The notes under the pieces were generated by a model. It saw only the letters and a list, made by a program, of their open reading frames with translations, was not told the origin of the DNA and made no database searches. The position numbers were made by a program, and so were the translations under genes. Shown here in pieces: positions 43,501 to 59,498 of a stretch of 59,498 bases of DNA; within the stretch, counting starts at the first letter, position 1; every line of letters starts with the position of its first letter. Source of the stretch: a virus (lineage: Duplodnaviria > Caudoviricetes); the IMG/VR virus record IMGVR_UViG_3300037071_001110, positions 1 to 59,498 of that record; one strand, 5' to 3'.

Positions 43501-43508
43501 TGAACCCC

Positions 43509-45417: not shown

Positions 45418-45422
45418 GGCCC

Positions 45423-45714: not shown

Positions 45715-47442
45715 TCAGCCGTGGATGATTCCCTTCCTCCGTAGCTCCAAGATGTTGCGGTTAATCATCGCCTTGTCGAAGTTCACTCCGGCGATATACT
45801 GCTCGATCGAGTTGTTGCTCCGGTACTTGTAGACCGTAACGTTGTGGACGCGAGAGACGCGATGGATCCGATCCTCTAGTTGCTCCTGATCGTCGGGTGT
45901 CCAGGTTTCGTCCAAGATGTGAATCGAGTCAGCCTGGTCAAGCGTGATTGCGACGCCGCCCGCCGTTGTGACGATCACCATAACTCTGGGACCGTCCTTC
46001 TCTTGGAAGCTACGGACGATCTCAGTGCGGTCCTTCGGCTTGACGTCGCCCGAGATCAACACTACGGGTATCCCGCACTCCTCCAGGTACCGAGCGACCA
46101 TATTCGCGACGCTCTTGAACTGTGAGGCGACGACCGCTTGCGCGTCGCCGGTTGGGTCGTCGGGGTCAATCCCGCGTTCCGCCAGCCGGTCGAGGAGCGC
46201 CGGCAGCTTCCCACTATCCGTCGTCGGCGCAACGTTCCCAGCGATGATGTCGCACCTGGCGTCCGCGAACTGCTTTAGCCGAGTATACAGAGCGAGGATG
46301 TTCGTCGCACTGAGGTGCTCCTCGTCTATTTGAATCTCGTAGCGGGTCGCCATAGCGTCGTAGAACTTGGCCTGCTTCTTCGTCATATCGCACCAAACGT
46401 CAACGTACGTCTTTGGCGGGAGGTCAGGAGCGACCTCATCCTTCGTACGCCGTACCATATACGGTCGGAGCGTTTGATAGAAGGCGTCCTCCTTGCCCTC
46501 CTGAATCCCTCGGATATCCCAACCGAACCCGTTGTTGGAGGTAACGAGCCATTCCTTGGCCCAGTTCCACTTATTCGAGAACGAGTGAGGATCGAGGAAG
46601 TGAAGTGCCGACCACAGCTTGATGGGCTTACCGCCCACTGGTGTTCCGCTTAGGCAGTAGCGTCGCTTCGCCTTGAGCTTGAACGCTCTGGTCGAGAACT
46701 TCGTCTTGCTGTTGGAGAGTCCCGCCTTGTGGAACTCGTCGATGGTAACCGAGGTCCAATCGACCTCAGTGAGCCACTCGCCGTCCTTGCCTCGAAGGGT
46801 ATCGAAGTTGGTGACGAGCCAGAACGGGATTCCGTTCTTGTACGAATCCGCCGCGATGCGGAGACTCGTATGACGATCCGCGCCTCCCGCGACCAGCACT
46901 ACATGAGGCTGGAAGCGTCGAAGCTCGTAGCTCCACACTGTGTCCAGTGAGGTGAGCGGAGCGATGACCAGATGGGGGCCGTCTAGCATACCGGCCTCGA
47001 TGATGCCTCCGAGCGTCTCGACTGTTTTGCCGAGGCCCGGTTGATTCGCGTTCAACGCGCTGGTCTGCGCGAGGAAGCTGATGTCCGCTCGTTGGTACGT
47101 CCTCGTTGAGACGAGGCCGAACAAATCCGGAGCGAGCGTTGGGAGACGCTCTAGCTGGGCGTCGTCAGCGCCCGCGACCGAGAGCAACTTCTCCTCGGCG
47201 TTGCGCGCGTTCCTTCCCCAAGCCTTCGCTTCATCGGTTAGACGAAGTTGCTCTCCGAAGATGTCTCGTAGCCGACGAGCGTTCCGCATATTCGCGGGTA
47301 TCGTCCAGTGGGGACCGCCTCGGTCCTTGGGGACGAACTTGCGCCCGCTAATCTGCTTTATGGCATCGATCGCAATCGGGTTGTACCCGAACTCGACTTT
47401 GAGCCGAGGGCCGTCGATGTCAACCGTCGCTACCATTTCCAC
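45715..47442 (-). CDS. SNF2-family helicase
   Basis: PGLGKT, DEFH, LSGTP, MVRRTK, SGK, Q.EDRIHR. Confidence 0.92.
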   Translation of the reverse strand: MEMVATVDIDGPRLKVEFGYNPIAIDAIKQISGRKFVPKDRGGPHWTIPANMRNARRLRDIFGEQLRLTDEAKAWGRNARNAEEKLLSVAGADDAQLERLPTLAPDLFGLVSTRTYQRADISFLAQTSALNANQPGLGKTVETLGGIIEAGMLDGPHLVIAPLTSLDTVWSYELRRFQPHVVLVAGGADRHTSLRIAADSYKNGIPFWLVTNFDTLRGKDGEWLTEVDWTSVTIDEFHKAGLSNSKTKFSTRAFKLKAKRRYCLSGTPVGGKPIKLWSALHFLDPHSFSNKWNWAKEWLVTSNNGFGWDIRGIQEGKEDAFYQTLRPYMVRRTKDEVAPDLPPKTYVDVWCDMTKKQAKFYDAMATRYEIQIDEEHLSATNILALYTRLKQFADARCDIIAGNVAPTTDSGKLPALLDRLAERGIDPDDPTGDAQAVVASQFKSVANMVARYLEECGIPVVLISGDVKPKDRTEIVRSFQEKDGPRVMVIVTTAGGVAITLDQADSIHILDETWTPDDQEQLEDRIHRVSRVHNVTVYKYRSNNSIEQYIAGVNFDKAMINRNILELRRKGIIHG

Positions 47443-47483
47443 CTTTCGTAGCCCTTTTGGGTCGGGGGTCCCGACCTACCTAG

Positions 47484-47512
47484 AGCGTACTCTCTTTCAA
47501 CACGTCCGTCTA
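47484..47512 (-). promoter_or_regulatory. SigA-like promoter
   Basis: TAGACG-N17-TACGCT on -. Confidence 0.75.
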
Positions 47513-47520
47513 GTATTGTT

Positions 47521-47680
47521 ATGGTTCCCTCGCGGGCGGGCGGGCGGGCATCCGTGGGTGGAAGTCTCGCGTACGGAGAAGTCTTATCAAAATCTTTATC
47601 ACCAGGTAGTGACGTGATTTCAGGTTCTCGCGATAGAGTCCCACTCGGGTGATGACCCGCCCGGCCGCGCCCGCGCGAGG
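47521..47680 (-). repeat. Long imperfect palindromic element, copy B
   Basis: Reverse complement aligns to 161-345; GC-rich arms around an AT-rich core. Confidence 0.85.
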
Positions 47681-48157
47681 CTACTTGGCCTTGGGAACCC
47701 GGATCTCATTCTCCCGTCCCTCTGCCCGGAGTGTCCGCTCCTGGCGCTTTCGCTCGATGGCGACGAGCCTGTAGGACTTCGGCCGATTGGTCCCGGGGAC
47801 CCACTCGATGAATCCCTTGTTCACGAGTCGCTGGATGTCCGAGTTCGCGGCGTTGTTGTCGCTCCCTCGCCACCCGGCGTACAGCTGGACAGTGAAGCGC
47901 CGCACCTTGTACATCCACTCGCGCTTCCGCTCCCAGGTGATGGCCGCCTGTGGCGTCCCCTTCATCCCTAGGCTGCGAACGTCGGGCCGCACGTGATCGC
48001 GCTCGATCCTCAGGAGTTCAATGTCGCTGAGCTTCTCGCGAATGTCGTTCTCCAACTCGCGGATCTGCTCATCGATCTCAAACGCCTTGGTGTAGGCGTC
48101 TACCTCCTCGATGACGGGCTGTCGGCGCTTCTTCTTGCGCCTCGTTTCTACTGCCAT
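47681..48157 (-). CDS. Coiled-coil plus winged-HTH protein
   Basis: A.SDIQRLV.KGFIE wing pattern. Confidence 0.55.
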   Translation of the reverse strand: MAVETRRKKKRRQPVIEEVDAYTKAFEIDEQIRELENDIREKLSDIELLRIERDHVRPDVRSLGMKGTPQAAITWERKREWMYKVRRFTVQLYAGWRGSDNNAANSDIQRLVNKGFIEWVPGTNRPKSYRLVAIERKRQERTLRAEGRENEIRVPKAK

Positions 48158-48167
48158 GTGAGCTCCC

Positions 48168-48638
48168 TTACCAGGAGCGGCTGGGAGTCCAGTGGGCAGA
48201 CGCCCCACAGACTGACCCGTACCGTTCCTTGGCGTATGCCTTGAACCAGACCATCTGAGTCAAGGGATTTGTGTATGCGTCCTTCCCGTATGCTAACATC
48301 TTGCTACGGGGTAGTGCTTGCCCCAGGCCGTATGCGCCGGACCCGTCGTAGTTCCAGATCCGGTGGTCCCAGGTACCGGCCGTCTCGCCGTTGATGATCT
48401 CGGCGGCGCAACTGAACGACGTTCCGAAGAATGCTCGGGCGAGGTTCTTGTTGCCTTCGGGGGTGGGTTTGAGAATCGGCTTCGCGATCTTGCGTAGGGT
48501 TCGCAACTCCTGTCGTTCCTTCTTGAGTTGCGCTCTGAGCGCTGCGTTTTGCTCGACCACGGTGGGTTGTTCGGTCGAGTAGCTCGCGCCAACGGCCAGA
48601 CCGGCCATAATGGCGAGAACCGCGATCCACTTTGCCAT
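48168..48638 (-). CDS. Exported lytic transglycosylase-like protein
   Basis: Signal/TM segment; GAYGLGQALP..KM, TNP.TQ..W...Y...RYGS.C.A..HW. Confidence 0.75.
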   Translation of the reverse strand: MAKWIAVLAIMAGLAVGASYSTEQPTVVEQNAALRAQLKKERQELRTLRKIAKPILKPTPEGNKNLARAFFGTSFSCAAEIINGETAGTWDHRIWNYDGSGAYGLGQALPRSKMLAYGKDAYTNPLTQMVWFKAYAKERYGSVCGASAHWTPSRSW

Positions 48639-48663
48639 GATTCCTTTCGTTGTTTATGGGACA

Positions 48664-48735
48664 TGGGACGGACGGGACTTGAACCCGTGACGCGACTCGT
48701 TGCCGGAGCCCGCTCTACCACTGAGCTACCGTCCC
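48664..48735 (-). tRNA. Atypical tRNA, anticodon GCA (Cys-reading), G33, A73, no encoded CCA
   Basis: GGGACGG/CCGTCCC acceptor stem, GCTC-AGTGGTA-GAGC D arm, GGCTC-CGGCAAC-GAGTC anticodon arm, TTCAAGT T loop. Confidence 0.85.
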
Positions 48736-48740
48736 TCACT

Positions 48741-48965
48741 TCAGTATGTCTTGTTGATTAGTAGGCACTCGCAGAATGAGAGGCCGTCCTCAACACGGCG
48801 CCCTCGGAAGTTGTAGTCGCGACGCAAGACCTGGAGCGGCGTCGGGATGCCCTTCCTGATCCCGAGGTCTTGGAGCTTTCTACCCCGCTGCTGCCAGAGC
48901 AGCGCGTAGTAGACGCAACGGATCTTGAACTCTCTGATCTGCATAGGTGTATCGTAGACCGTCAA
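48741..48965 (-). CDS. Hypothetical protein
   Basis: 4-nt overlap with the upstream gene. Confidence 0.5.
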   Translation of the reverse strand: MTVYDTPMQIREFKIRCVYYALLWQQRGRKLQDLGIRKGIPTPLQVLRRDYNFRGRRVEDGLSFCECLLINKTY

Positions 48966-49435
48966 TGTCCGCCTACTCCTTTGATCTTTCCCCGACGCTT
49001 CATGAGCTTCGGGTTCTTCTTGCCCGTCTTAGGGACGCCTGCCGAGACTAACTTGAGGGGCCGCAGTTGCTTACTTACTGATCGTGTAGACCCGCGTTGC
49101 GGTTTCGCGATCTTGTAATGGACCCTGCCCTTACGCTTGATACGGATCAGCGTCCCCGCTTCATAGAGCGGCTTTAACTTGTACGCGAGCGTCGAGGGCG
49201 AGCAACCGAGTGCCTCGGCTATCTCGGCCGATGTTGGCTCGCCGAGTTTGCGTACGGTATCTCGTACCTGCTCGTTGGAGATCCAGGTGTACCGGCGCTT
49301 TGCGCCCGGCTCGGGCTCCGGGGGCAGGTTTTTGATCTCGTCATCGAGCCAAGCGAGCGTACCGACCATCTCATCGATGTCCTTCATCAAGTCGTTACGC
49401 ATGGCGAGGAGTTCCTCGCGACTGTGTTCACTCAC
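48962..49435 (-). CDS. Coiled-coil plus winged-HTH DNA-binding protein
   Basis: TSAEIAEALGCS.STL...L..L...G. Confidence 0.7.
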   Translation of the reverse strand: MSEHSREELLAMRNDLMKDIDEMVGTLAWLDDEIKNLPPEPEPGAKRRYTWISNEQVRDTVRKLGEPTSAEIAEALGCSPSTLAYKLKPLYEAGTLIRIKRKGRVHYKIAKPQRGSTRSVSKQLRPLKLVSAGVPKTGKKNPKLMKRRGKIKGVGGH

Positions 49436-49892
49436 TCGGGTACTCCGTCCACTTCCGCGTCTGGTCGAGCGTAGTAATGACGATACCCTTGTTCGCTTTG
49501 CGAGCCCGCCGGATAGTTGCCCAAGTGCCCGACCCGATGCCGAGTTCCTTGGGGGAGCGCGGGAACGCGAGCAACACGTCGCAGAAAGCAACGAGTGCGT
49601 CGTTCCGCTTCATGTAGGTCGGGCAGGCGACGTACTCCGTGAACTCTACCTCTAGGTCCAAGAGCCCGGTATTCCAAGGGTCATTATCCGGGAAGCAGAT
49701 GCGGTGGTGGGCGCTCGGGATAACCTCAAAGCCGACGATCGCAGCGATCGTATCAATCCCATGAGCGCCGCCGGTCGAGAACTCACTGATCTCAGAGGTA
49801 GAGTGTCGTAGGCTCATCGTGATCATTTGCCGAGCGTACTCGGACTCCAAGGGAGTCGGATCAGATATGCCAGTGACGGAGATTCTCAACAT
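49428..49892 (-). CDS. SLOG-family (YspA/DprA-like) protein
   Basis: VTG, TGGA.GID, RN..LV...D.LLAF, SGTW.TIR.A. Confidence 0.75.
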   Translation of the reverse strand: MLRISVTGISDPTPLESEYARQMITMSLRHSTSEISEFSTGGAHGIDTIAAIVGFEVIPSAHHRICFPDNDPWNTGLLDLEVEFTEYVACPTYMKRNDALVAFCDVLLAFPRSPKELGIGSGTWATIRRARKANKGIVITTLDQTRKWTEYPSE

Positions 49893-49910
49893 TGGATTCG
49901 TCCTACCCGT

Positions 49911-49939
49911 AGACTACCGAACCGCAATTCGCGAGTCTA
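49911..49939 (-). promoter_or_regulatory. SigA-like promoter
   Basis: TAGACT-N17-TAGTCT on -. Confidence 0.7.
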
Positions 49940-50212
49940 GTATTGCGGCCGAACTTTCTTCAGTATGCGACCTGGGAGCCACGCACCGACCTTCCCAGGG
50001 GGAGGGTTGATCCAGACTACCCAAAAGAGGCGCTCCCCTCGCAAGTGGTCCATCATGACGAGCTTCGTGGTGCGAGCGTGATACCCGACCAATGACACAT
50101 TGCCAAGAGAACTCGTCACTGATCGGGTCGGCTCAACAACGGTACCCGGCGGCAATCGCTTGCTCCGGATCCATTTCGCCCGGCGTCTCGGAGGGGCCAC
50201 TCGCTTAGACAA
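49937..50212 (-). CDS. Basic hypothetical protein
   Basis: ORF whose TAG stop forms the downstream -35 box. Confidence 0.5.
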   Translation of the reverse strand: MSKRVAPPRRRAKWIRSKRLPPGTVVEPTRSVTSSLGNVSLVGYHARTTKLVMMDHLRGERLFWVVWINPPPGKVGAWLPGRILKKVRPQY

Positions 50213-50225
50213 TCTTTTCTCCCCC

Positions 50226-50311
50226 GCCGTAGCGGATTCTAACGGTTGCGGAGGGCGGGGTAGGGGTTAGGACCCTACCTACCCCCGCAAGCCCTTAGAA
50301 TCCGGTACGGC
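50226..50311. repeat. ~86-bp palindromic element
   Basis: GCCGTAGCGGATTCTAA...TTAGAATCCGGTACGGC; shares exact 15-mer and 16-mer with 31706 and 44281. Confidence 0.8.
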
Positions 50312-51295
50312 TTACCCCTCAATCTCCCCACCGCCGCCGCGGTTGACCCGCTGCCCGGCCGGTCCGACGATCTCAGCGTCAGTGCCGGCGACCGTACCCT
50401 TGTCGTAGGCCGTCCAGTCGAGGCTGTATTCTTTCGGCTTGGCGACCTTCTTGCCGGGCTTCTTGCGCTCCTCCCGGATCTGGTGGAGGTCGGGGAAGAT
50501 CATGTTGACCTCCGCCTTGACCGCGTCGTAGATGTCCCGGAGAACGATGGCGTACGGGTTGCCGCCTCCCGAGGTCTTTGACTCGTTCCGGTCGTCCATT
50601 TCCCGGAGTCGGGCAGCCACTGTGCTAACGAAGCCAGCGGCGAACGAACGGCGGTGCTTCTGCCAGTTCGGGTACGGCCTTGTGCGGCCGTTCTCGGCTG
50701 CCCAGCCCCGGTAGTCCCGGGTCATCTTGTGCTCGATCTGCTTCGAGTTCTTGCCCCCGGCGTAGCCAGGCCAGAAGATGTTCGCGTCGATCATCCTCCG
50801 CGCGATCTCAGGCCAGGTGATCCCTGCCTGGTGCATCGCCTCAAGGTTCTCGTAGTAGTTGAGTTCCGAGGTTGGCTTCGGGTTCGTCGCCCGCGCCAGC
50901 TGTAGCAGCAGGCTGGTGAAGAGCAGGTCGGCGTAGTCAGCGTCGGCAGGGAAGCCGACGATCGGCATACCCTTGTTCGCGAACTCTGTGTACTTGTCCG
51001 GCACGATGGCTACCCGGCAGTGCTGGTAGACATAGTGCATCAGGTTGTACATCGAGGAACGTACGGCAGGCTCCTGCTCGTAGTCCCAGAACCATGCGAA
51101 GTCGACAAAGCCGAGGAGCGGCTTGACGTCGGCGTCCGCGTGATGAAGCTCGAACTCCTCAATGGCGTACTCCGCCATGAGTTCGTCGGCCTTGTTGCGG
51201 AAGGCATCCGCTTCCTCGGGCGTCACTGCCCGATCGTTCGCCTTCATCAGCAAGGCCCGGACCTTCCGCAGAAGGTCCTCCCTCTTGGTGGTCAT
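50312..51295 (-). CDS. DUF2786-domain protein
   Basis: L.KVRALL.KA....TPEEA..F..KA.ELMA.Y.I; RRSF..GF...V..RL. Confidence 0.75.
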   Translation of the reverse strand: MTTKREDLLRKVRALLMKANDRAVTPEEADAFRNKADELMAEYAIEEFELHHADADVKPLLGFVDFAWFWDYEQEPAVRSSMYNLMHYVYQHCRVAIVPDKYTEFANKGMPIVGFPADADYADLLFTSLLLQLARATNPKPTSELNYYENLEAMHQAGITWPEIARRMIDANIFWPGYAGGKNSKQIEHKMTRDYRGWAAENGRTRPYPNWQKHRRSFAAGFVSTVAARLREMDDRNESKTSGGGNPYAIVLRDIYDAVKAEVNMIFPDLHQIREERKKPGKKVAKPKEYSLDWTAYDKGTVAGTDAEIVGPAGQRVNRGGGGEIEG

Positions 51296-51374
51296 CTTTG
51301 CCCTTTCCCTTTTTGAACGTGGTGGGGAGAGGACCAGGTGAACCCCTTCAACCGTGGCCCTCTCCCCTAGGGGT

Positions 51375-51404
51375 ACTCTAGCGTACCCTCAACACGTCCG
51401 TCTA
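51375..51404 (-). promoter_or_regulatory. SigA-like promoter
   Basis: TAGACG-N18-TAGAGT on -. Confidence 0.55.
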
Positions 51405-51552
51405 GCCTTGCGACGAATCCGAATCAAACCCTTGCGTCCGTGAGGGTAAGATGCGTTTGGTACGAACGGCTGGCATCTGTAGCAGTAGTTCTTCCTGTTC
51501 CAACCACTGTGTACAAATGCCTGCCGTCCGCAGTTAGCGCAAGGTGAGAGAA

Positions 51553-52143
51553 CTACTTGCGGCGTGCCTTGCCGCGAGGGCGGGACTTGACGGCGACGGG
51601 GGCCTCGTCCTCATCGTCCTCGTCGTCCTCATCCTCGTCCTCGTCCTCCAGGTCCTCGTCATCCTCGTCCTCGTCCTCATCGTCCGGACCGGACTCAGCG
51701 AGGGCCTTCTTGGCCTTCTTGCCCTTCTTGGCCTTCTCAGCCGCCTCCTCAGCGGAGAGCGCGTTGGCCTTGCGGCTGATGACGGCGTCCGGGTCGTCAC
51801 CCTCCAACTCCGCTCCCTCACGGATGAGGTCCATCACGTCCTTCTTGGTGAGGCCGGTGCGCGCGACGAGGCGCTCCCAGCGCACCTTGTTGACGGTCCG
51901 CTCGCGGTACAGCTTCTTGGCGAGACGCTCGCGCGGACCCTTGGTGCTGATCTCCAGGTCCGGGTTGTGCATGACCTCCTGCGCCCACAGGAGTCGGTGC
52001 CCCTTCGCGATGCCGACATCCGCGGCCTCACAGGCCTGGATGATCGACATCTCACGCTCGTTGACCAGCGTGTAGATGTCGGGATCGCCGTTCTCATCCT
52101 TTGGGATGGACGAGCCCTTCTTGCGCTTGCTGGCGACTGCCAT
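51553..52143 (-). CDS. Tandem HTH-like protein with long acidic tail; paralog of 58812-59351
   Basis: RLLWAQE and RWERLVARTGL...V.DL motifs. Confidence 0.65.
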   Translation of the reverse strand: MAVASKRKKGSSIPKDENGDPDIYTLVNEREMSIIQACEAADVGIAKGHRLLWAQEVMHNPDLEISTKGPRERLAKKLYRERTVNKVRWERLVARTGLTKKDVMDLIREGAELEGDDPDAVISRKANALSAEEAAEKAKKGKKAKKALAESGPDDEDEDEDDEDLEDEDEDEDDEDDEDEAPVAVKSRPRGKARRK

Positions 52144-52181
52144 GGAACCCCCTCGGGTTTCGGTGTTCGTGTTCGTTAGGT

Positions 52182-52210
52182 ACCCTAGTCCACCGAAACT
52201 GAAAAGTAAA
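52182..52210 (-). promoter_or_regulatory. SigA-like promoter
   Basis: TTTACT-N17-TAGGGT on -. Confidence 0.65.
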
Positions 52211-52254
52211 GGGGTCAAGCTTCTCCCTGGTAATCGCCAGGTTAGCCTCAGTAG

Positions 52255-55200
52255 CTAAATGTCGAAGGTGTCCCACAACTTCGCGCGGTCAACCTTACGG
52301 ACCTCCGCCATGTGGTACATAATCTGCCTCGATCCCGCTGCGACCTCGGCGTACATCAAAATGCCGTCGGCGTCCTTCGCCTCAATGGACTCGGCCAAGG
52401 TCACGTTACTCGCCAACTTGGCAATCTCGGCGAGCTTGTTGAGAAGCTCCATGTCTCTGTCTGTGAAGCTCATTGGCGCTTCTCTCCCACTTTGATCCAC
52501 CCGCCGCCGCGTCGCCGCAGGTCGGGCAGGTTGACGGTCGTCTCGCCGTCCCCCTCGCCAAACATGCCGCGCAGCACGGCACACAGCTCGGGATACTCCG
52601 CTCGACTCACTTCACTGCCATCGGTCAGCTTCCACTCACCGCCGTCGTTTGGCGGTGAAGCCGGGGAGTCCCAGATTGTCCCGATGGGTAAGTCGAAGCT
52701 CACAGGCGCTTCTCCTTGGCTGGTGTCAGTTCATGCACGTAGTCCCGCGATTTGCCGCCACAGTAGGGGCAGGTGAGGGTTACGAGTGCATCCTCCATCC
52801 CCTCGGGGAGCTTGTGCGGCAACGGCACTTCTGACCCGCAGTGAGAGCAGGTGAGGAAATGTTTAGGTTCCTTCACGCTGGGTCCTCGATGCCGTCCCAC
52901 CCCAGACAGTCACAGTCAGACTCGACACACGCTCCGTAGCCGATGTCCGTGGGGGCGTGGATGTTCATGTTGTGTCCGCAGACCTCGCACTCAAGCGACA
53001 CGATCATGTCGTCGGTCCCTCACCCTCGAAGTTGCCCTCGTCGTTCGGGTACTGCGTGTGTCCGCAGCGAACGCAGGTTCGGTAGGTGTAGAACTTCGAC
53101 CAGCGCCAGCCATCCTTGTGCATGCAAGGGTCAAACGGTATCTTGCCCGTGCCCTCGCAGTACTTACAGTCGTAGTTGTTCGCTGCGTCGGCGTCGTCGT
53201 CTGTGACGATGTAGCCCTGCCCGCCGCAGACGTAGCAGTCACGGAGAGGTCTGCTCCCCACTAGTCCACCATCCAGTCGTCATCGAGGATCGCGTCGAAG
53301 TCTGTGTATGTCTTCTGGGGGAGGGGGCCGAGGATCTCTTTGAGGGTGCCCGACTCCAGTGCGATCATGTTCACGAAGAACACCGTGAAGCGGTGGTCAT
53401 CCCAGGCTGCCATGATGGCGTGCGACCAGGTGTTGGGGTCGCTCTCGCTTTGCGCGGAGGCGTAGCGGGACGGACGCTTGATGGGGAGGATCGGCCAGTG
53501 CGGCCAGTCCCCCGGAGAGGTCATGAAGTCCAGTTGCTTGTTTCGGTCGGCGGCGTTCATCAGTTCCGAATCTCCGCGTCCCACCCAAGCTCGTACATGA
53601 TCGCGTCCCACCAGTAGTCGCCCGGGTCAACCTGGAACGCCCACAGCGCCATGGCCCGAGTGTGGAGGTCGATGTACTCGCCCTTCTCCCACCACTGTTC
53701 GCGCCGCGTCTCCTTGGCAGTGAACTTCGTCTCGCACCACGGCGAGCAGAACTCGTCGTTGTAGTGAAGCTCGTAGTTGTCATCCTCGGAGTACGCGCCG
53801 TTGGGGCGAGAGCACTCTCGGCAGAAGTCGAAGTCAGGCGAGCCGACTATCTGTGGCTCGTTGCCGGTGACCCCGGGAGGGTAGTTTGAACGTCCCATAT
53901 GAGGCCCTTTCATCGTTGGTCGGGAACTACCCTTAGAGTAGTCTACGGCAAAACGATTCGCGAGGATTGCTAGGTCAGACCAGCTGGTCGGAAGCGGTTG
54001 ATCCACTCGTCCTCGCGGTTGAGCTTCACCACCTCGTTGAGAAGATTCTTGTCATACCACCCCGCCTCGATCTGCTCGGCAGCATAGCGATCCGCGCGAG
54101 GGATGTAGTGATCCGGATTCGTGAACTTAGTGAGCATTATGAGCCTCCTGTGGATGATCTCATATGCTATTTGTCCGGAATTGTCGAGTCTGGTTGCGTG
54201 TGGAATCGGATGGTTTCCGGATGTATGTAGACGTGACGGCCTGGGCTAATGCGCCACAATCCCTCATCCTCGTCATGGAGGCACGCATAGGCCGGGACCT
54301 CAATGTGCTGATCCTTACTCATGCTTCGCCTGACCGTAACCCAGAGTCTGCCGCTCGCGTCTCTGCGCGACTGAGTGACCTCAAAGTTAGGCGCTGGCAT
54401 TTGTGCGAATCGCTCCCGCACCGCTACACTCCAGGCAGTTGAGACCGTCGATGTCGAGCCCGTCGCCCGCGCAATCTGGGCAGACCACCGTGTCAGGGAA
54501 CCTGAGGATGTCGGCGGACTTCTCAGATCTGGCTCTCACCTGGTTGACGATGTAGACCGATCCGTTGACCTCGACTACTGCGTTCTGTAGCTCAATCGCG
54601 TTGGCGATATCGAACGGGCGCTGTTGAGGCCCCGAGTCGAGCCTCAGTTCGATGTTGAATAGCACGTTGTCTTAGCCTCTCTCGCGGTTGCGTAGCGGGG
54701 TAGGGCTACGGGTAGCCTACCGTACCGCAATCCGCTAGGGGGTTGTCTAGGATTGCGAGGATATTGAATCCCCCGCTCCTAGCGCGATCCGCCCTCCGCG
54801 ATGAGCCGTTGCCCCCGGCCGATCCCCAATTGGCAATTGTACTGATTGAAGTGCTCTTGGCAAACGTATGCCCAAGGGCCAGTAGGCAATCTGGCATCGG
54901 CATAAGCTGCCCTGTCCCGCTGGAACGAGAGGCAGATGTCGCAACTGGGGATAACTGCGACGACGACCTCAGTGTGGGGCTCGGCCATTGCTAGAAGCCC
55001 TTGATGAAGAACCCGAGCGTCAACACAATGAGGGCGAGAAGGATCAACACGCAGATCCCGTAGAGGATCACTTCCATCGTCGTGTTGAAGATCGTCGCCG
55101 CTCTTGTGAACCTGTCGATCGGCTCGGGGGTGACGAAGGATACTGCGAAATTGCCGGGGCTGTCCCCGTTTGTGTAGGTCCGCACTTGGCTACCTGCCTT

Positions 55201-55608
55201 CCCTTATCTCCAGGGTGTTCAACTCGTCCGCCTTGAAGGCGTCAAACTCTGCTTGCGCCTCCTCCAGAGTTTTGTAGTAGACGTTTTGTTGTCCGTACTC
55301 GTCCTCAAAGTTCAGACGGATCGTTCCGTTGAAGTCGCTGTCGTCCGGGTTGTACCACCGCACTCGGCGAGTGAAGCCGGGGCGACGGTTTTGCCAGCTT
55401 TTGTGGATCGACCTCATCACTCGTCGTCCTCGGCCTCGTCATCGGCCTCATCGGTTGGCGGGTGGGGCTCGACGGAGACGAGGCAGGGCGGGTTGATCAA
55501 ACCCATCGCGTCAACGACGTAGTATGCCGCGTCGGCGTCCTCAGTGAAGACGACGACTGTCTTGGTCGTTCCCTTGCTCTCGATGGTGACGGCGAACTCG
55601 GGCACTAC
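52255..55608 (-). CDS. Cluster of small early hypothetical genes, many with CxxC pairs (e.g. 52700-52876, 52873-53007, 53004-53261, 53560-53898, 53970-54137, 54387-54665, 54779-54988, 55190-55420)
   Basis: Tightly coupled short ORFs on - with RBS; individual boundaries less certain. Confidence 0.55.
52470..52703 (-). CDS. Stand-alone phage tail-collar domain protein
   Basis: LPIGTI....P...W...DG..VSR.EYPEL..VL...FG.GDG.TT.NLPDLR. Confidence 0.75.
   Translation of the reverse strand: MSFDLPIGTIWDSPASPPNDGGEWKLTDGSEVSRAEYPELCAVLRGMFGEGDGETTVNLPDLRRRGGGWIKVGEKRQ
53935..53963 (-). promoter_or_regulatory. SigA-like promoter
   Basis: TCGCGA-N17-TACTCT on -. Confidence 0.55.
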
Positions 55609-56207
55609 CAGCCCCACTTCCCCGCGCAGATCGGGCCGATGCCCCGGGCGCGGCTCTCGTCGTTGGTCAGGGTCCGTCCGCAGATGCCACACTTCCCGAT
55701 GTGGAGGCCGAAGTTCTCAGCCGCTGTCTTCGGGTCCTTGGCGATCTTGTCGAGGGCCGCGACGGGGTTTGCCGCCGGGTACTCACTGTCGGAGGCCAGA
55801 ACGTAGAGCTTCCAACCGCCCCGCTCACCGATCCAGAGCTTGAAGAACGTCAGATCGTTGATCCGCGAGGGCTCGTCCTCGGTGTTGATCGCGTAGCTGC
55901 CTCGGGGGATCTTGACCGTCGGGTTCGTCCCTTGGGTAAGGTAGCCGATGCGAGTCGGCTCCTGCCCAGCGCGCTGCTCCTCGACGTACTGAACGCGGTA
56001 CCCGTTGAAGCGCGGGTTCGGGCTCTGTGAGCCGTTTTGCGTTTGCCGGCGGGGGAGCGACTTGAGGCGGTCGATCCAGCGACCGGCTTGCTCCTTGGTG
56101 AGGTGGGGGAGCCGGGCGAGAGCCTCAGCCTTTTGCTCCTCGCTCACCTCGTGAATGTCGAGGAGGTCCTTGATGTAGGACTCCTGACCTGAGGTAATCG
56201 GGTACAT
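55605..56207 (-). CDS. DUF6011-type zinc-finger protein
   Basis: CGICGRTLT..ESRARGIGPICA. Confidence 0.75.
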   Translation of the reverse strand: MYPITSGQESYIKDLLDIHEVSEEQKAEALARLPHLTKEQAGRWIDRLKSLPRRQTQNGSQSPNPRFNGYRVQYVEEQRAGQEPTRIGYLTQGTNPTVKIPRGSYAINTEDEPSRINDLTFFKLWIGERGGWKLYVLASDSEYPAANPVAALDKIAKDPKTAAENFGLHIGKCGICGRTLTNDESRARGIGPICAGKWGW

Positions 56208-56262
56208 TCCTTTGCCCTTTCCGTTCGTTGCGTTTCGCGCGGTCCGTTCCGCGCGTACCCTT

Positions 56263-56291
56263 AGAGTAGCCTACCGCAACTGTGCAGTCTA
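56263..56291 (-). promoter_or_regulatory. SigA-like promoter
   Basis: TAGACT-N17-TACTCT on -. Confidence 0.75.
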
Positions 56292-56713
56292 GTCTTGCTC
56301 CGGAGTTGCTTCTGTGTTCTCGTAGTGGACGGTGTCGCCCTTGCAGATGATCCACGGGCTGTGGCCGAGTACCAACTCGACATCCCGGTGGGAGCGAGCG
56401 ATAATCTTGTCCGTGTTGTGGTTGTCCTGGATGAGTAGGAGCTTGTAGTTCGGGTATGGCTCGATGTGTATGACGATCCCGCTTGGCATGTTGTCCTTTA
56501 GGGGAGGGTGGGGAGCTTGTGGTCCTCGCGCAACAGCTTGCGGAGGTCGTTCGTGATGTCGCCGATGGCCTCGCTCACGATGACGCTGTCCTCGATGTAG
56601 CCGTCGGGGTCCTTCGTGATGAACTCGGCCTCGACCTTGTCGATGACCGCCTGGACATCGTAGGTCTTCACAAGGCAGCTGTCGTTCTCAAACACCATGA
56701 TCGCCGTGATCAT
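56289..56713 (-). CDS. Two small hypothetical genes (56498-56713, 56289-56489)
   Basis: RBS-preceded ORFs between two promoters. Confidence 0.55.
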
Positions 56714-56749
56714 ATCTTCGCCCTTTCATTTGTGACTCGGCCTACCTAG

Positions 56750-56778
56750 AGCGTACCGGAAAACAATTGTGCAGTCTA
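56750..56778 (-). promoter_or_regulatory. SigA-like promoter
   Basis: TAGACT-N17-TACGCT on -. Confidence 0.75.
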
Positions 56779-56918
56779 GTACTGTTTGATCTCATATAGT
56801 GCTATGTCCGTAAATGGGAGGGTGGAATGATTCTGAGTGAGGACGTGGCTTTTGCTTAATTGCGTTGCTTAATTGAAGCGGGAGGAGCGCGCGATCGCAA
56901 ATCGCGCTAGTTGTTAGA

Positions 56919-57452
56919 CTACTTGCTACCCTCGTTGTCGAGGATGACGTCGATCAGATCGACCTTGGGCTCGTCGGGCTCGTTGGGCTCGAAGGTCGGC
57001 TGGTGCTGACGGTAGTAGTTGGCCTCGGCCTCCTCAGTCGCGACCCAAGAGTCGTCGATGTACTCGACCAGTCCGAAGGTCTGAAGCTGGTAGAGCTTCC
57101 CCGGAGTGATCCACGCAGGGATCTGGAAGCTCGACTCCCAGACCGTGATGATCTCGCCCTTGCGAGCGAGGAAGTCAACTCGGTCGTTGATTATGTTGGA
57201 GAGCGCCCAGTAGAGCGCGTTGTACGCCTCGTTGTCCGGGTCGTTGTACGGGTTCCTCGGGCCTCTGACCGACTTGGGCAGATCCGGGTAGACCGCGTCA
57301 ATGAGACTCTCGGAGTTGAGATTGTACGCCTCGCCGCTCGCTGCGCGGATGATCCGCTCGTCTATGCGAGCGTCGCCGACGCCGAGTGCGTTGACGGAGG
57401 CGTCCTCCATCCCCGCCTTCTTGAACATATCGTACTTCTTGTAGTCCTCCAC
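56919..57452 (-). CDS. Acidic hypothetical early protein
   Basis: GGAGG RBS, own promoter. Confidence 0.65.
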   Translation of the reverse strand: MEDYKKYDMFKKAGMEDASVNALGVGDARIDERIIRAASGEAYNLNSESLIDAVYPDLPKSVRGPRNPYNDPDNEAYNALYWALSNIINDRVDFLARKGEIITVWESSFQIPAWITPGKLYQLQTFGLVEYIDDSWVATEEAEANYYRQHQPTFEPNEPDEPKVDLIDVILDNEGSK

Positions 57453-57494
57453 TGTTCCTCCGTTCGGGTTGCGGTCGGAGTTCGACCTACCTAG

Positions 57495-57523
57495 AGGGTA
57501 GCGGTTCGCAATCGTGCAGTCTA
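57495..57523 (-). promoter_or_regulatory. SigA-like promoter
   Basis: TAGACT-N17-TACCCT on -. Confidence 0.75.
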
Positions 57524-57698
57524 GTTTTGCTTATTGCTTCGGATTGATTTGTTTGTTTGTTTTGTGAATGATCTCATATTGCTAGTGTCCGTAAATGGGG
57601 TAGTGCATTGCCGTGATTGTTTTGGGTAAATGGGTTGCGTAATTGAATAGGGAGAGTTGGAAGGAACTTTGTTAGTCCCTTCGTTGTTCGTTAGGTTG

Positions 57699-58070
57699 CT
57701 AGACGCGCCAGGCGGTCCAGCTACCGTCCTCAAAGAGCCGTACTGCGTAGCGGGGGTTCCAGGACGCGGTACTGAATCGGACGCAGAGAACGTTGCCGTC
57801 CGGAATCGCGATCTGCCGCGGAACGCAGCGCCAGAACGGGTCGATGGAGTGGCGGGTAGCGTTGGCGACGGAGCGTTGGAGCTTTCGGAGCCAAGCGGCG
57901 TTGTTGAGGCTCTCGGGGAATGGCCCCGGGGTCGGTGCGATCTTGCCCCGGAGGTAGGTCTGGTAGTTTGGGTTGGGTCCGGGTACTGGGCTGTGGTAGT
58001 ACGGGAGGGCAGTCGTCGCCGTTGAGGCGAGGAGCGCCGCTCCCGTCAGTGTGATGGCGAGAGGCTTCAT
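57699..58070 (-). CDS. Exported hypothetical protein
   Basis: Signal peptide MKPLAITLTGAALLASTATTA. Confidence 0.55.
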   Translation of the reverse strand: MKPLAITLTGAALLASTATTALPYYHSPVPGPNPNYQTYLRGKIAPTPGPFPESLNNAAWLRKLQRSVANATRHSIDPFWRCVPRQIAIPDGNVLCVRFSTASWNPRYAVRLFEDGSWTAWRV

Positions 58071-58264
58071 CAGCTAGCGACCTGGTGGCCGCATTCGAGG
58101 CGGTAGAGGATGGAGAGGATGGTCCGCTTGTGCTCGTTGTGCCGGACGGTGTTGAGGAGCCCGTTCGACTCCGTGATGAGGCGCTGCGGCCCCTCGGCGA
58201 GCGGACCGCCGGGCTCGCCATTCTCGTAGTAGCAGCACCGACATTCGATCGTAGTTCCGAGCAT
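58070..58264 (-). CDS. Small hypothetical protein
   Basis: TGATG coupling; LECGH motif. Confidence 0.5.
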   Translation of the reverse strand: MLGTTIECRCCYYENGEPGGPLAEGPQRLITESNGLLNTVRHNEHKRTILSILYRLECGHQVAS

Positions 58265-58366
58265 TTTTCTCTCCGTTCTATGGGGTGGAGGGGAACCGTT
58301 CCCCGCCGAACCCCTAGCGTAGCGCGTTTCAACACGGTTCGGGTACTGCTTTGATTTGAGTTATTT

Positions 58367-58521
58367 TGTAAATGATCTCATGGCTAAGTGTCTGCTATTG
58401 AGGGTTCTGTAGTGAGGTGAATGATCTCATGACCTGGTGTCGCCAATTGGGGGTTTTGTTTTCTTTGGTTTTATTGGTTTTGGGTGAATGATCTCATGGC
58501 TTGGTGTCGCGAATTGAGGGT
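58367..58521. repeat. Three degenerate ~37-bp repeats (GT[GA]AATGATCTCAT-N7-TGTC-N5-TTG[AG]GGGT)
   Basis: Cores at 58372, 58421, 58488; further copies at 57568, 56786, 54154, 42166. Confidence 0.85.
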
Positions 58522-58691
58522 CTTGGGTTGCGCGAGGTTCGGGCGACCTAAGTGCGAAGGTTAGGGGTCCCGTACGAGCTCCGTTCGGGCCGGCGAACGT
58601 CGCCGGCGAGGTCGCCCGAAGTTCGGAAGTTCGGCCGACCGAAGTTCGTACGTTAGGAGCTCCGAACGCCGGCGAGTAGGGACCCCTAAGT

Positions 58692-58720
58692 TCGCGAACC
58701 GTTCGGCTTAACCGTACGCT
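58692..58720 (+). promoter_or_regulatory. SigA-like promoter for ORF 58812
   Basis: TCGCGA-N17-TACGCT, same -35 variant as 53958-53963. Confidence 0.5.
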
Positions 58721-58811
58721 AACCTACGGGCGGTAAAGAGGAGTAGACTTCGGGACGAAGGAAAAAGAGGTCGCGAATCGGTCGCGACCCTACGAACGGA
58801 AGGAAGGTCCT

Positions 58812-59351
58812 ATGTCCGAGAAGATTCCCGCCGCGAAGGTTCGGAAGGCGGTCGCGAACTACGTCGCCGGAGCGAAGCTCGGAGAGGTCGCGAAGCTCCT
58901 CGGGATCGCTCCCGAGAAGGCGGAGCGGGTCCTATGGCGGGCGGAGCCGATCTACGCGGACGGGGCGAAGGTTTCGCCGCTTCCGTTCGACCTCTCTACG
59001 CGGGAGGGTCGCGCGGTCGCCGCGTCGGTCGTTTTCGCGCTTCGCGAGGGTCGGCCGCTTCCCGACGGCTACGTCGGCGGGCGGATCGCGTCGGACGCGA
59101 TCGCGCTCCGATACGAGCGGATCGCGTACCGTACGGGTATCGCGCTCGGGACGGTTCGCGACCTCTACGCGATCGCGCGGGACGGCGGCGCGGAGTCGGA
59201 CGAGAAGGCCGGGAAGCCCCGTCCGGAAGCGGTCGCGTACCGGAGCGACTCGTACGTCGGTCGCGGGAGGCGAGGCGAGACGACGCGCGACCTCCGCGCG
59301 ATTCGCGAGGAGGAGGAGGCGAGCGCAGGGGACGAGGAGGCGACCGCGTAG
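58812..59351 (+). CDS. Tandem HTH-like protein encoded in CpA/TpG-free DNA
   Basis: GGAAGGAAGG RBS; LGEVAKLLGIAPEKA and RYERIAYRTGIALGTVRDL HTH-like segments; acidic tail. Confidence 0.75.
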   Translation: MSEKIPAAKVRKAVANYVAGAKLGEVAKLLGIAPEKAERVLWRAEPIYADGAKVSPLPFDLSTREGRAVAASVVFALREGRPLPDGYVGGRIASDAIALRYERIAYRTGIALGTVRDLYAIARDGGAESDEKAGKPRPEAVAYRSDSYVGRGRRGETTRDLRAIREEEEASAGDEEATA

Positions 59352-59373
59352 CGTTCGCGAACTAGTCGGCCCG

Positions 59374-59402
59374 CGCGGGAGGGTACGGATACCCTTCCCG
59401 CG
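59374..59402 (+). terminator. Stem-loop after ORF 58812
   Basis: CGCGGGA-GGGTA-CGGA-TACCC-T-TCCCGCG; no U-tract. Confidence 0.55.
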
Positions 59403-59459
59403 TAGGGTCCGGCGACCTGTGCCGGCCCGGTAGGAGCGCCTAGGGGACCCGGGTAACGC

Positions 59460-59492
59460 TTTTCCCCCAGTATCGTACGCGAACTGCCTGCA
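59460..59492 (+). repeat. 33-bp terminal direct repeat, right copy
   Basis: Identical to 8-40. Confidence 0.95.
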
Positions 59493-59498
59493 TCTCTC

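What the first reader, a model, noticed from the sequence alone, without database searches (positions are those of the whole stretch)
58554..59418. An 865-bp CpA/TpG desert holding a complete expression unit at the genome end
Seen: reading line by line, only three CA/TG dinucleotides occur in 58554-59418: the ATG start (58813), the single Trp codon (58935) and one GCA (59326). Uniform dinucleotide usage would give on the order of 100. The block covers a promoter, RBS, a 179-aa gene and a hairpin, and it starts abruptly next to a TG-rich region (58345-58530). The protein therefore has no Gln, His, Cys or internal Met, and Leu/Val avoid CTG/GTG, whereas its paralog at 51553-52143 uses Q, H, C and M freely. 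The constraint thus acts on the DNA, not the protein. Inference, two options: (a) virion DNA is modified in the TpG/CpA context and this first-expressed gene must stay unmodified for host RNA polymerase; (b) this is first-entering DNA purged of CA/TG-containing restriction targets so an anti-defence protein can be made before the rest enters, by analogy with T7 0.3/Ocr or the T5 first-step region.
Basis: partly seen in the sequence, partly recalled or inferred. Interest (0 to 1): 0.92.

Follow-up and report, generated by a model that had tools for sequence, protein, structure and literature searches.

The report
Phage gene cassette lacking CA/TG dinucleotides
One small gene and its control regions in a soil phage have almost none of the DNA letter pairs CA and TG, which even bars four amino acids from the protein; this suggests that something in the infected cell reads this letter pair and that this gene must stay invisible to it.

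Summary
Window 58554-59418 (865 bp) holds 3 CA/TG against about 93 expected, and no other part of the genome comes close. The ban holds in the 325 non-coding bases and at codon junctions (0 against 19.4±3.3), so it acts on nucleotides.

The block is natural. Contigs of other sequencing runs bridge its border without a difference. A 94.5%-identical relative from another habitat has 14 substitutions, and none creates CA/TG (chance about 0.004-0.008).

"Genome end" is not shown: the window ends share a 33-bp repeat and a contig reads across them.

The block is bracketed by a significant 42-bp inverted repeat. It carries one gene for a two-HTH protein. That protein is homologous to the C-terminal domain of GmrSD-type Type IV restriction nucleases, and to a CA/TG-normal paralog in the same phage.

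The block is not poor in restriction sites in general: it has 30 six-bp palindromes against 8 per 865 bp elsewhere. No modification enzyme was recognised.

Best reading (0.4): purifying selection keeps this transcription unit free of a dinucleotide that some nucleic-acid-directed activity reads. The agent is unknown. Rivals are biased mismatch repair, an RNA-level cause and imported composition.

The parts
58554..59418 (.). CA/TG-free block (3 CA/TG in 865 bp; GC 68.2% against 59.7% for the window)
58565..58606 (.). left arm of the 42-nt imperfect inverted repeat (79% complementary) that brackets the block
   Evidence: Score 19.5 against 12.0±1.5 in Markov-1 simulations; 0 of 60 reach it
59409..59450 (.). 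right arm of the bracketing inverted repeat; it runs past the last CA/TG-free base
58561..58689 (+). large branched hairpin or cruciform upstream of the gene (outer stem TTAGGGGTCCC / GGGACCCCTAA, 11 of 11 paired)
   Evidence: 273-nt fold -74.1 kcal/mol, z -4.4, 0 of 200 shuffles as stable
58798..58807 (+). Shine-Dalgarno-like GGAAGGAAGG, 4 nt before the ATG
   Evidence: read from the sequence
58812..59351 (+). gene 85, 179 aa: two HTH-like units, a YVGRGRR motif and an acidic tail. It is a stand-alone homolog of the C-terminal domain of GmrSD-type nucleases.
   Evidence: GC by codon position 0.73/0.53/0.87. Family HMM built without it gives E=1.3e-27. AF2 model pLDDT 71.8. In the relative, 7 synonymous against 4 amino-acid-changing codon changes.
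59368..59409 (+). strong stem-loop after the stop codon, with no U-tract
   Evidence: -43.4 kcal/mol for 81 nt, z -2.5
58367..58525 (+). three 43-bp direct repeats, TG-rich, with core ATGA-TC-TCAT. They lie between the block and the leftward early operon and are operator- or promoter-like. A fourth core copy lies at 57566.
51553..52218 (-). distant paralog (gene 67) with normal CA/TG and a long poly-acidic tail

Best explanation
The block is an 886-bp cassette (58565-59450) bracketed by 42-bp imperfect inverted repeats. It lies between the start of the leftward early/replication operon and the region that precedes the rightward structural genes. It carries one RBS-led gene for a two-HTH DNA-binding protein. 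The same protein family supplies the extra C-terminal domain of about 790-aa GmrSD-type (DUF262-DUF1524) Type IV restriction nucleases of soil bacteria. Shown: the cassette is kept free of the CA:TG base-pair step by a force that acts on the nucleotide sequence of both strands, in coding DNA, non-coding DNA and codon junctions. This costs the protein Gln, His, Cys and internal Met, and the ban persists in a diverged relative. Inferred: 5'-CA-3', read on either strand, is the minimal recognition element of a nucleic-acid-directed activity in the infected cell. That activity could be a host defence enzyme that marks or cuts DNA, or the phage's own modification or shut-off enzyme. This one transcription unit must stay unmarked, uncut and transcribable while other DNA is hit, so it is a 'target-free' cassette for a regulator or counter-defence protein. 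The agent itself is not identified.
For: 1. The depletion is extreme and unique in the genome: 3 against about 93, with no other 500-bp window below 25 outside the block's edge. 2. It acts at nucleotide level: 0 junction CA/TG against 19.4±3.3, and 0 in 325 non-coding bp. 3. It is symmetric (1 CA, 2 TG), so one single-strand specificity read on both strands suffices. 4. Two of the three exceptions are the start codon and the family-invariant Trp. 5. It needs active upkeep: 46% of all possible transitions in the block would create CA/TG. A relative from a different habitat (254 nt, 94.5% identical) has 14 substitutions and none creates CA/TG (P=0.008 for random changes; 0.004 given its 4 transitions and 10 transversions). 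6. Replacements are conservative, as selection would choose, and not the Arg expected from TG>CG drift: LRWERIA becomes LRYERIA. 7. It is not a property of the protein family: gene 67 and 5 of 5 cellular loci are normal. 8. It is real DNA: contigs of runs X3 and X4 bridge 58553 with 0 differences. 9. CA/TG-based words are special genome-wide: TGCA (86 against 171) and CATG (180 against 244) are the two most under-represented of all 136 tetranucleotides. 10. The product is linked to defence nucleases. 11. There is a precedent for a dinucleotide-reading defence enzyme: CmdT reads GA in ssRNA (passages read).
Against: 1. No enzyme with CA or TG specificity is known to me, and none was identified here. 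2. The rest of the genome has CA/TG at odds 1.0, so the phage as a whole tolerates the supposed agent. It is unclear how sparing one gene would rescue an infection. 3. There are no expression data and no RNA run. Promoter and timing are unknown. 4. The defence link is indirect. The same domain also occurs as a stand-alone 137-aa gene among housekeeping genes (L004). gp85 has no significant structural match beyond generic HTH folds. 5. Only one relative fragment (254 nt) could be examined at DNA level. 6. TCGA is also depleted inside the block (1 against about 11), and this reading does not explain that.
Confidence: 0.4

Rival explanations
1. Biased mismatch repair or gene conversion. The cassette recombines often between diverged copies, either because it is mobile and flanked by inverted repeats or because it lies in a terminal repeat. 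T:G mismatches in the resulting heteroduplex are repaired to C:G by a Vsr/TDG-like activity. TG/CA are thereby driven to CG except where selection forbids it.
For: The missing steps are replaced mostly by CG (+62 to +86) and only a little by TA (+9 to +17), and GC rises to 68%. The borders are abrupt and the flanking inverted repeat is significant. Contig depth in X3 rises from 204 to 507 along the block, as if its 3' part were shared by more genomes or were terminally redundant. That VSP repair depletes CTAG in E. coli is recalled, not tested here.
Against: A 97% purge that also forces amino-acid usage is far beyond known repair-driven biases. Substitutions at family-conserved positions are conservative (W>Y, M>L), not the transition products (W>R, M>T). 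The relative's changes are 10 transversions and 4 transitions, with no sign of a T>C drive. TCGA depletion is not predicted.
Confidence: 0.15
2. RNA-level cause. The block equals one transcript, whose 5' and 3' ends pair through the 42-nt inverted repeat. The mRNA is built to survive RNA-directed enzymes (RNase, toxin or ADP-ribosyltransferase) that read CA and/or UG.
For: The block begins just after a -10-like TAAGTG (58549-58554, read) and ends just after the terminal hairpin, so it could match a transcription unit. The end-to-end inverted repeat could form a panhandle. CmdT shows that dinucleotide-specific attack on mRNA exists. ACA-less mRNAs resistant to MazF are recalled.
Against: This needs two independent specificities (CA and UG) on one strand, whereas a DNA-level cause needs one. 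The transcription start is unknown, so up to 190 bp of the block may not be transcribed. No RNA data exist.
Confidence: 0.12
3. Imported composition. The cassette is a recently acquired moron or mobile element whose odd composition evolved in another genome, and it is not maintained by anything in this phage.
For: Its GC and dinucleotide make-up are distinct. It is flanked by inverted repeats. It carries palindromes (GCCGGC, GAGCTC, 9x TCGCGA) that the host phage otherwise avoids or holds at ordinary levels. In the mine-metagenome run only the gene fragment, not the flanks, was found (depth only 2.7).
Against: This only moves the question to the donor, and no genome with such composition is known to me. 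The relative keeps the ban through 14 substitutions. Identical sequence, in phage context, occurs in several runs. No transposase or target duplication was seen (read; Pfam).
Confidence: 0.08
4. One reading: the first-entering end of the genome, purged of restriction sites in general so that an Ocr-like protein can be made first.
For: The gene sits next to the probable packaging region and upstream of the structural genes, so it could be packaged last and ejected first if packaging runs rightward from there (inference from the gene map). The rest of the genome shows strong restriction-site avoidance.
Against: The block holds 30 six-bp palindromes against 8.0 per 865 bp elsewhere. Physical ends are not shown. 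There is no similarity to Ocr/ArdA-type mimics.
Confidence: 0.05
5. Assembly chimera, synthetic spike-in or sequencing artefact.
For: The block sits near a contig end and its composition is odd.
Against: Twelve further runs besides the two possible sources hold 22-94% of its words. X3 and X4 contigs cross both the left border and the gene with 0 differences. A 94.5% variant shows a synonymous-rich substitution pattern.
Confidence: 0.01

Closest known systems
Restriction-site (palindrome) avoidance in phage genomes, and early anti-restriction regions (T7 0.3/Ocr, T5 first-step-transfer DNA); recalled, not tested
   Same: Sequence words are removed from phage DNA by selection because something in the host reads them. 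A small early gene is possibly linked to defence.
   Different: The missing word is a dinucleotide, not a 4-8 bp site. The removal is total but confined to 865 bp. The block is enriched, not depleted, in ordinary 6-bp palindromes. No DNA-mimic protein was found and no terminus was shown.
[quoted passage not shown]
   Same: It shows that an immune enzyme can use a dinucleotide as its whole recognition site. Its authors argue that phages cannot escape by mutating sites genome-wide, which would make purging one essential transcript the only sequence-based escape.
   Different: It reads a different dinucleotide (GA, which is abundant in this block: 86). It targets RNA. Here both CA and TG are missing, which fits a DNA-level reading better. 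No CmdT-like gene was examined here.
CpG/UpA suppression in vertebrate RNA viruses (ZAP, RNase L) and APOBEC footprints; recalled (ZAP-CpG is also stated in the abstract of PMC10191365, listing)
   Same: Dinucleotide-level avoidance driven by a nucleic-acid sensor or editor.
   Different: Those cases are genome-wide and partial. This one is local, near-total and in a bacteriophage, and CpG is maximised rather than suppressed.
GmrSD / BrxU / SspE family of DUF262-DUF1524 Type IV (modification-dependent) nucleases
   Same: gp85 is homologous to the extra C-terminal domain of a subfamily of these enzymes. The enzyme cores match PADLOC 'Orf5', 'mREase_IV', 'HEC-06' and, more weakly, SspE.
   Different: gp85 has neither the DUF262 nor the DUF1524 domain, so it is not a nuclease. 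The domain also occurs alone in a housekeeping context (L004). Its function is unknown.
Fungal repeat-induced point mutation (RIP; CpA>TpA); recalled
   Same: A process that empties DNA of CpA/TpG.
   Different: RIP gives a TpA excess and wrecks genes. Here CG takes the place of CA/TG, TA rises only slightly, and the ORF is intact and under purifying selection.
Morons and ultra-small mobile elements of actinobacteriophages (MPME); recalled
   Same: A small self-contained unit with its own composition, flanked by inverted repeats, sitting between phage operons.
   Different: No transposase, target duplication or second copy was found. Dinucleotide exclusion is not, to my knowledge, a feature of those elements.

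Membership tests
GmrSD-C-terminal-domain-like HTH family (unnamed) | Sequence homology over the whole domain, including the motifs ERxLWxxEP, LRW/YxRIAxRxG and YxGRGRR | tested here: met
   phmmer against representatives found 5 relatives at E<=9e-4. A family HMM built without gp85 hits it at E=1.3e-27. The motifs are visible in the alignments.
GmrSD-type Type IV restriction nuclease | DUF262 (PF03235) NTPase and DUF1524 (PF07510) HNH nuclease domains | tested here: not met
   gp85 has no Pfam hit below E=0.09 and 0 PADLOC hits. Only its cellular relatives P0007-P0012 carry these domains.
First-entering anti-restriction region (T7 0.3/Ocr, T5 FST) | Position at the physical end of virion DNA that enters first | tested here: inconclusive
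   The window ends share a 33-bp repeat, and a contig of another run reads across it. Only contigs, not raw reads, were available.
First-entering anti-restriction region (T7 0.3/Ocr, T5 FST) | General paucity of restriction sites; product is a DNA mimic or other known anti-restriction protein | tested here: not met
   30 six-bp palindromes against 8.0 per 865 bp elsewhere. No Ocr/ArdA-like hit.
Context-specific phage DNA modification (Mom, DpdA/7-deazaguanine, 5hmdU derivatives, GpC methylase-TET) | A modification enzyme encoded in the genome | tested here: not met
   0 of 85 predicted proteins hit a methyltransferase, transglycosylase, TET/JBP, kinase or glycosyltransferase family in Pfam. 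Only ThyX and a phage-specific flavoprotein-like protein might touch nucleotides. Many proteins have no family, and only 25 of the 112 PHROG families were shown.
Context-specific phage DNA modification | Modified base present in virion DNA in the CA/TG context | not testable with these tools
   Needs native long-read kinetics or LC-MS. The indirect signal is mixed.
Moron / small mobile cassette | Own composition and flanking inverted repeats | tested here: met
Moron / small mobile cassette | Own promoter and terminator; transposase or target-site duplication; copies in other contexts | tested here: inconclusive
   An RBS and a hairpin are present, but no promoter was shown. No transposase family and no duplication were seen. 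The depth pattern and the isolated fragments in X16 and X17 are suggestive only.
RIP-like / deaminase hypermutation | TpA excess matching the CpA/TpG deficit, and degraded coding capacity | tested here: not met
   TA is about 9-17 above expectation, against a deficit of about 90. CG takes the rest. The ORF is intact, with a synonymous-rich divergence.

The most novel reading that the evidence does not exclude
5'-CA-3' on either strand is the whole recognition site of a so far undescribed DNA-directed immune or take-over activity in soil Actinomycetota. This could be a nickase, an ADP-ribosyl- or other transferase acting on single-stranded DNA, or a phage-made base modification that Type IV GmrSD-like nucleases then read. 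Phages answer with 'immune-privileged' cassettes from which the dinucleotide has been purged, here at the price of a protein built without Gln, His, Cys and internal Met. If so, k-mer deserts would be a sequence-only way to find counter-defence genes and to read off the specificity of unknown defence or modification systems.
Probability: 0.25. Interest if true: 0.95.

Novelty: new variant of a known kind. Interest (0 to 1): 0.85.

Why it matters
Motif avoidance is a familiar footprint of host-virus conflict. A complete, local ban on a dinucleotide that reshapes a protein's amino-acid alphabet is, as far as my six literature searches and my own knowledge go, undescribed in phages. It implies a strong agent, still unknown, that reads a two-base word. 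It offers a simple computational screen: look for windows devoid of one dinucleotide pair, to find similar cassettes and the genes they protect. It also links an orphan phage protein to an unannotated accessory domain of GmrSD-type restriction nucleases, which makes both experimentally approachable.

Tried and rejected
Searches for relatives that found nothing.
- blastn of 58300-59498 against the phage collection: no match.
- megablast of 40000-58000: only 1% cover.
- tblastn of gp85 against phages: only a chance hit, E=0.5.
- The search for related loci in viral contigs with gp85, genes 82, 1 and 5, alignment A2 and P0002: none.
- The search for related loci in genome contigs with P0002: none.
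- The word-index protein search found only the protein itself, on 4 contigs, the longest 59,509 bp.

Family and structure searches that gave nothing decisive.
- Rfam: 0 matches in 57500-59498.
- Promoter scan: 0.
- Pfam/PHROG/NCBIfam/PADLOC for gp85: nothing significant.
- Foldseek against PDB and BFVD: no hit at E<=0.001. The best was a GcrA-like regulator at E=0.049.
- ESM Atlas: generic HTH leads only, all scores below 0.85.
- PDB sequence searches of genes 54, 1, 3 and 82: nothing.

Other tools.
- Complex prediction of the GmrSD core (P0008 residues 1-600) with its own C-terminal domain (670-792): no verdict, score 0.00.
- The look-up of sequencing runs: no RNA holder listed.

Literature. 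Six searches listed no paper that describes a CA/TG-free or other dinucleotide-free phage region. I read only listings and abstracts, plus passages of PMC11543638 (E. coli C7 DarT1 has no consensus motif) and of the CmdTAC preprint. Supplements were not consulted.

Ideas considered and dropped.
- tRNA- or codon-level causes: junctions and non-coding DNA obey the ban.
- An oxidation-proof protein: same reason.
- A zone free of start codons or promoters: this would not need the CA half on the sense strand.
- PAM or Chi avoidance: no known two-base form.
- An invertible segment: no recombinase found.
- An IS200/605-like element: gp85 has no His, hence no HUH motif.

DNA of the closest relatives (P0002, P0003, and the diverged 857-nt contig in X3) could not be obtained, so their CA/TG content is inferred only from amino-acid composition. 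P0002 has 0 Q/H/C/internal M in 118 aa, and P0003 has 1 Q in 131 aa.
Full report
THE OBSERVATION. The block's own base composition predicts 92.6. At the genome's rate of 12.1 per 100 bp about 105 would be expected. Sliding 500-bp windows over the whole 59,498 bp hold 60.0±9.5 CA/TG, and only windows that reach into this block fall below 35 (minimum 2). The four longest CA/TG-free gaps of the window (391, 260, 122 and 92 bp) are all here. The next longest is 48 bp. Two unrelated actinophages taken as controls (50 kb each) have longest gaps of 115 and 55 bp.

The missing steps are replaced by CG (166, odds ratio 1.68, against 1.05 elsewhere) and a little by TA (31, odds 1.43 against 0.64). The number of pyrimidine-purine steps stays about constant, 200 against about 207 per 865 bp.

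THE CONSTRAINT IS ON NUCLEOTIDES. The 258 bp upstream and the 67 bp downstream of the ORF have no CA/TG. Inside the ORF no codon junction makes one, whereas shuffling the gene's own codons gives 19.4±3.3 (minimum 8 of 5000). The protein has no Gln, His or Cys, no internal Met and one Trp. The other 84 predicted proteins hold 8.8% Q+H+C+M, so P is about 7e-8 for none in 178 residues. Two of the three exceptions are the start codon and a Trp that is invariant in the protein family.

IT IS REAL DNA AND IT IS MAINTAINED. The stretch is held by 18 listed runs. Leaving out the two that may be its source, 12 more soil runs hold 22-94% of its sampled words. These are possibly one campaign. I laid 4 of the 18.
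- In X3 a 583-nt contig covers 58351-58933 with 0 differences.
- In X4, contigs cover 58391-58645 and 58636-59267 with 0 differences. The abrupt left border is therefore not a chimeric joint.
- An air-metagenome run holds 145 identical bases (59301-59445).
- A mine-metagenome run of another year holds a 254-nt relative (58872-59125) with 14 differences.

None of those 14 creates a CA or TG. They change 7 codons synonymously and 4 codons non-synonymously. Random sets of 14 changes avoid creating CA/TG in 0.8% of trials. Given the observed 4 transitions and 10 transversions the chance is 0.4%. The scarcity of transitions is itself telling, since 46% of all possible transitions in the block would create CA/TG. 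So the gene is under purifying selection as a protein, and the ban is under purifying selection, or constant correction, as DNA.

WHAT DOES NOT HOLD. The 'genome end' is not established. Window 8-40 is identical to 59460-59492 (33 nt). An X3 contig that ends at 59492 continues with the 12 bases of window 41-52. The record thus behaves as a circle, a concatemer or a short terminal repeat, and only raw reads could tell which. No promoter was shown.

ANATOMY AND SETTING. My gene map has 85 ORFs.
- Structural genes lie on the + strand from 389 to 31527. They include terminase, a Mu-like portal and protease, sheath, baseplate J, tape measure and tail fibres.
- Early and replication genes lie on the - strand from 58264 down to 31805. 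They include ThyX, DnaE-type polymerase, a primase-MCM-like helicase, an SNF2 helicase, a PD-(D/E)XK nuclease and an AAA_24 protein.

Gene 85 (58812-59351, +) therefore sits alone between the head of the leftward operon and the non-coding region that precedes the structural genes. Between it and the leftward operon lie three TG-rich 43-bp direct repeats (58367-58525) with an ATGA-TC-TCAT core. A fourth core copy lies at 57566.

The block is bracketed by a 42-nt imperfect inverted repeat (58565-58606 and 59409-59450, 79% complementary). It scores 19.5 against 12.0±1.5 in 60 Markov simulations, and none reaches it. Upstream of the gene lies a large branched hairpin (58561-58689; z -4.4). After the stop codon lies a strong stem-loop (59368-59409). 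A good Shine-Dalgarno sequence lies 4 nt before the ATG.

THE PROTEIN. gp85 is an orphan in the word-index search. The exhaustive HMMER search found five relatives (57% to 37% identity, E 1.6e-25 to 9e-4).
- The two closest, P0002 and P0003, are again almost free of Q, H, C and M (0 in 118 aa and 1 in 131 aa).
- P0006 is not.

DNA could be obtained only for the distant branch. There the domain is the C-terminal part of an open frame whose upstream part is a GmrSD_C (DUF1524) nuclease domain (L003). A search for longer proteins returned four proteins of 786-800 aa, and a 384-aa one carrying PF07510 alone. The four have PF03235 plus PF07510 followed by a Pro/Ala-rich linker and this domain. PADLOC models ('Orf5', 'mREase_IV Type IV methyl-directed restriction enzyme', 'HEC-06', and SspE more weakly) cover residues 1 to about 595 only, so the domain is an unannotated extra.

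Genome contigs gave three more loci, all titled as MAGs of the Thermoleophilia lineage. Two have an 800-aa fused frame. One is a stand-alone 137-aa gene among housekeeping genes.

A family HMM built without gp85 hits gp85 at E=1.3e-27 and gene 67 (51553-52218, -) at E=4.9e-7. The next best of the 85 proteins scores 0.096.

The AF2 model (pLDDT 71.8, pTM 0.64) shows two helix-turn-helix-like units. There is no significant structural neighbour. All five cellular loci and gene 67 have ordinary CA/TG (8.3-10.8 per 100 bp, against 0.56 in gene 85). At the family's conserved LRWERIA motif, the CA/TG-poor clade has Y (gp85, P0002) or L (P0003) instead of W. That is a conservative choice, not the Arg that a TG>CG drift would give.

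Option (b). The block is not poor in restriction sites. It has 30 six-bp palindromes against 8.0 per 865 bp in the rest: TCGCGA x9, CGTACG x5, CGCGCG x5, GCCGGC x3, GAGCTC x2 and others. The rest of the genome avoids palindromes strongly: CTCGAG 0 against 27 expected, GTCGAC 7 against 33, GCCGGC 11 against 30. Excluding CA/TG can remove only 16 of the 64 six-bp palindromes.

Option (a). 0 of 85 proteins match a known DNA-modifying family in Pfam. Strong palindrome avoidance argues that the DNA is not blanket-protected.

Two genome-wide signals do single out CA/TG words.
- TGCA (86 against 171) and CATG (180 against 244) are the two most under-represented of all 136 tetranucleotides.
- Six-bp palindromes that contain CA/TG are avoided less than the others (median O/E 0.65 against 0.33, Mann-Whitney p=0.013). 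The controls give p=0.056 and 0.60.

These signals fit either nucleases that read CA/TG-based words or a CA/TG-context modification. They do not decide between the two. Inside the block TCGA is also nearly absent (1 against about 11 expected from dinucleotides), which I cannot explain.

HOW IT MOST LIKELY WORKS. Shown: a nucleotide-level, strand-symmetric, maintained ban on one base-pair step, over what looks like one expression unit for a DNA-binding protein related to a defence-nuclease domain. Inferred: 5'-CA-3', read on either strand, is what some nucleic-acid-directed activity recognises, and this unit must escape it. A single single-strand specificity explains the symmetry. Dinucleotide-specific immune enzymes exist: CmdT reads GA in ssRNA, and its authors note that phages could not escape by mutating sites genome-wide. 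Purging one essential unit is the form of escape that remains.

I give this 0.4. The main weakness is that the rest of the genome carries CA/TG at normal frequency, so it is unclear how sparing one gene saves the phage. It would make sense if timing (entry or expression before the rest) or cooperation between infections matters.

Rivals:
- biased T:G>C:G repair in a recombination-prone cassette (0.15);
- an RNA-level cause, with the inverted repeat forming a 5'-3' panhandle (0.12);
- imported composition (0.08);
- the general restriction-purge model (0.05);
- artefact (0.01).

NOVELTY. Six full-text searches listed nothing on a dinucleotide-free region in a phage. I read listings and abstracts only, apart from the passages cited. 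I file the finding as a new variant of motif avoidance. If a CA-reading activity is found, it would be a new kind of system.

Noticed in passing
window 8-40 and 59460-59492: An identical 33-nt direct repeat lies near both window ends, with 7 and 6 unmatched bases outside it. A contig of another run reads from 59492 into window 41-52. This could be circular assembly overlap, a concatemer junction or a very short terminal repeat.
   Followed up: partly
window 59476 through the junction to 333: Seven copies of TACGCG(CG)A-type motifs (starts 59476, 24, 77, 129, 166, 291, 328) lie in the non-coding region before the first structural-side gene. Counting 7 more inside the block, 14 of the genome's 39 TACGCG lie in about 1.35 kb. 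This is a candidate packaging or origin site, or a binding array.
   Followed up: partly
window 58367-58525 and 57566-57580: Three 43-bp direct repeats (74-100% alike) carry the palindromic core ATGA-TC-TCAT, and a fourth core copy lies in the next intergenic gap. These are probably operators or promoters of the leftward early operon, directly abutting the CA/TG-free block.
   Followed up: no
whole window except the block: Avoidance of 6-bp palindromes is very strong (CTCGAG 0 against 27-34 expected, GGGCCC 1 against 14-27, GAATTC 0 against 13). TGCA and CATG are the two most under-represented of all tetranucleotides.
   Followed up: partly
window 58554-59418: TCGA occurs once although about 11 are expected from the block's dinucleotides (z -4.2). 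TCG is never followed by A in the non-coding part. Unexplained.
   Followed up: no
window 39209-39958 (-) and 33898-34803 (-): Gene 54, between the DnaE polymerase and the primase-helicase, belongs to a phage-specific flavoprotein-like family (Atlas feature score 0.95; TM 0.83-0.86 to viral clusters; about 0.7 to UDP-galactopyranose mutase-like folds). The ThyX homolog has an N-terminal extension of about 90 aa. These are the only candidates seen for unusual nucleotide chemistry.
   Followed up: partly
window 51553-52218 (-): The paralog gene 67 ends in a run of about 40 residues that is almost all Asp/Glu, followed by a basic tip. gp85 has a shorter acidic tail.
   Followed up: no
window 48664-48735 (-): The genome's single tRNA gene is tRNA-Cys(GCA). 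Cys is one of the residues absent from gp85.
   Followed up: no
L003 8-979; L005 1964-4363; L006 352-2751; L004 3962-4375: An unannotated domain of about 125 aa (two HTH units plus a YxGRGRR tail) sits after a Pro/Ala-rich linker at the C-terminus of about 790-800-aa GmrSD-type nucleases, in MAGs titled Thermoleophilia, Solirubrobacterales and Dehalococcoidia. It occurs as a stand-alone gene next to an HtrA-like protease gene in a Miltoncostaeaceae MAG.
   Followed up: partly
window 58351-59489, run X3: Contig word depth rises stepwise along the block (204, 325, 387, 507), against 250-267 in the flanking early genes. An 857-nt contig of depth 18 matches only pieces of the region at about 88% identity. 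The sample holds several related versions, or part of the block is terminally redundant.
   Followed up: no
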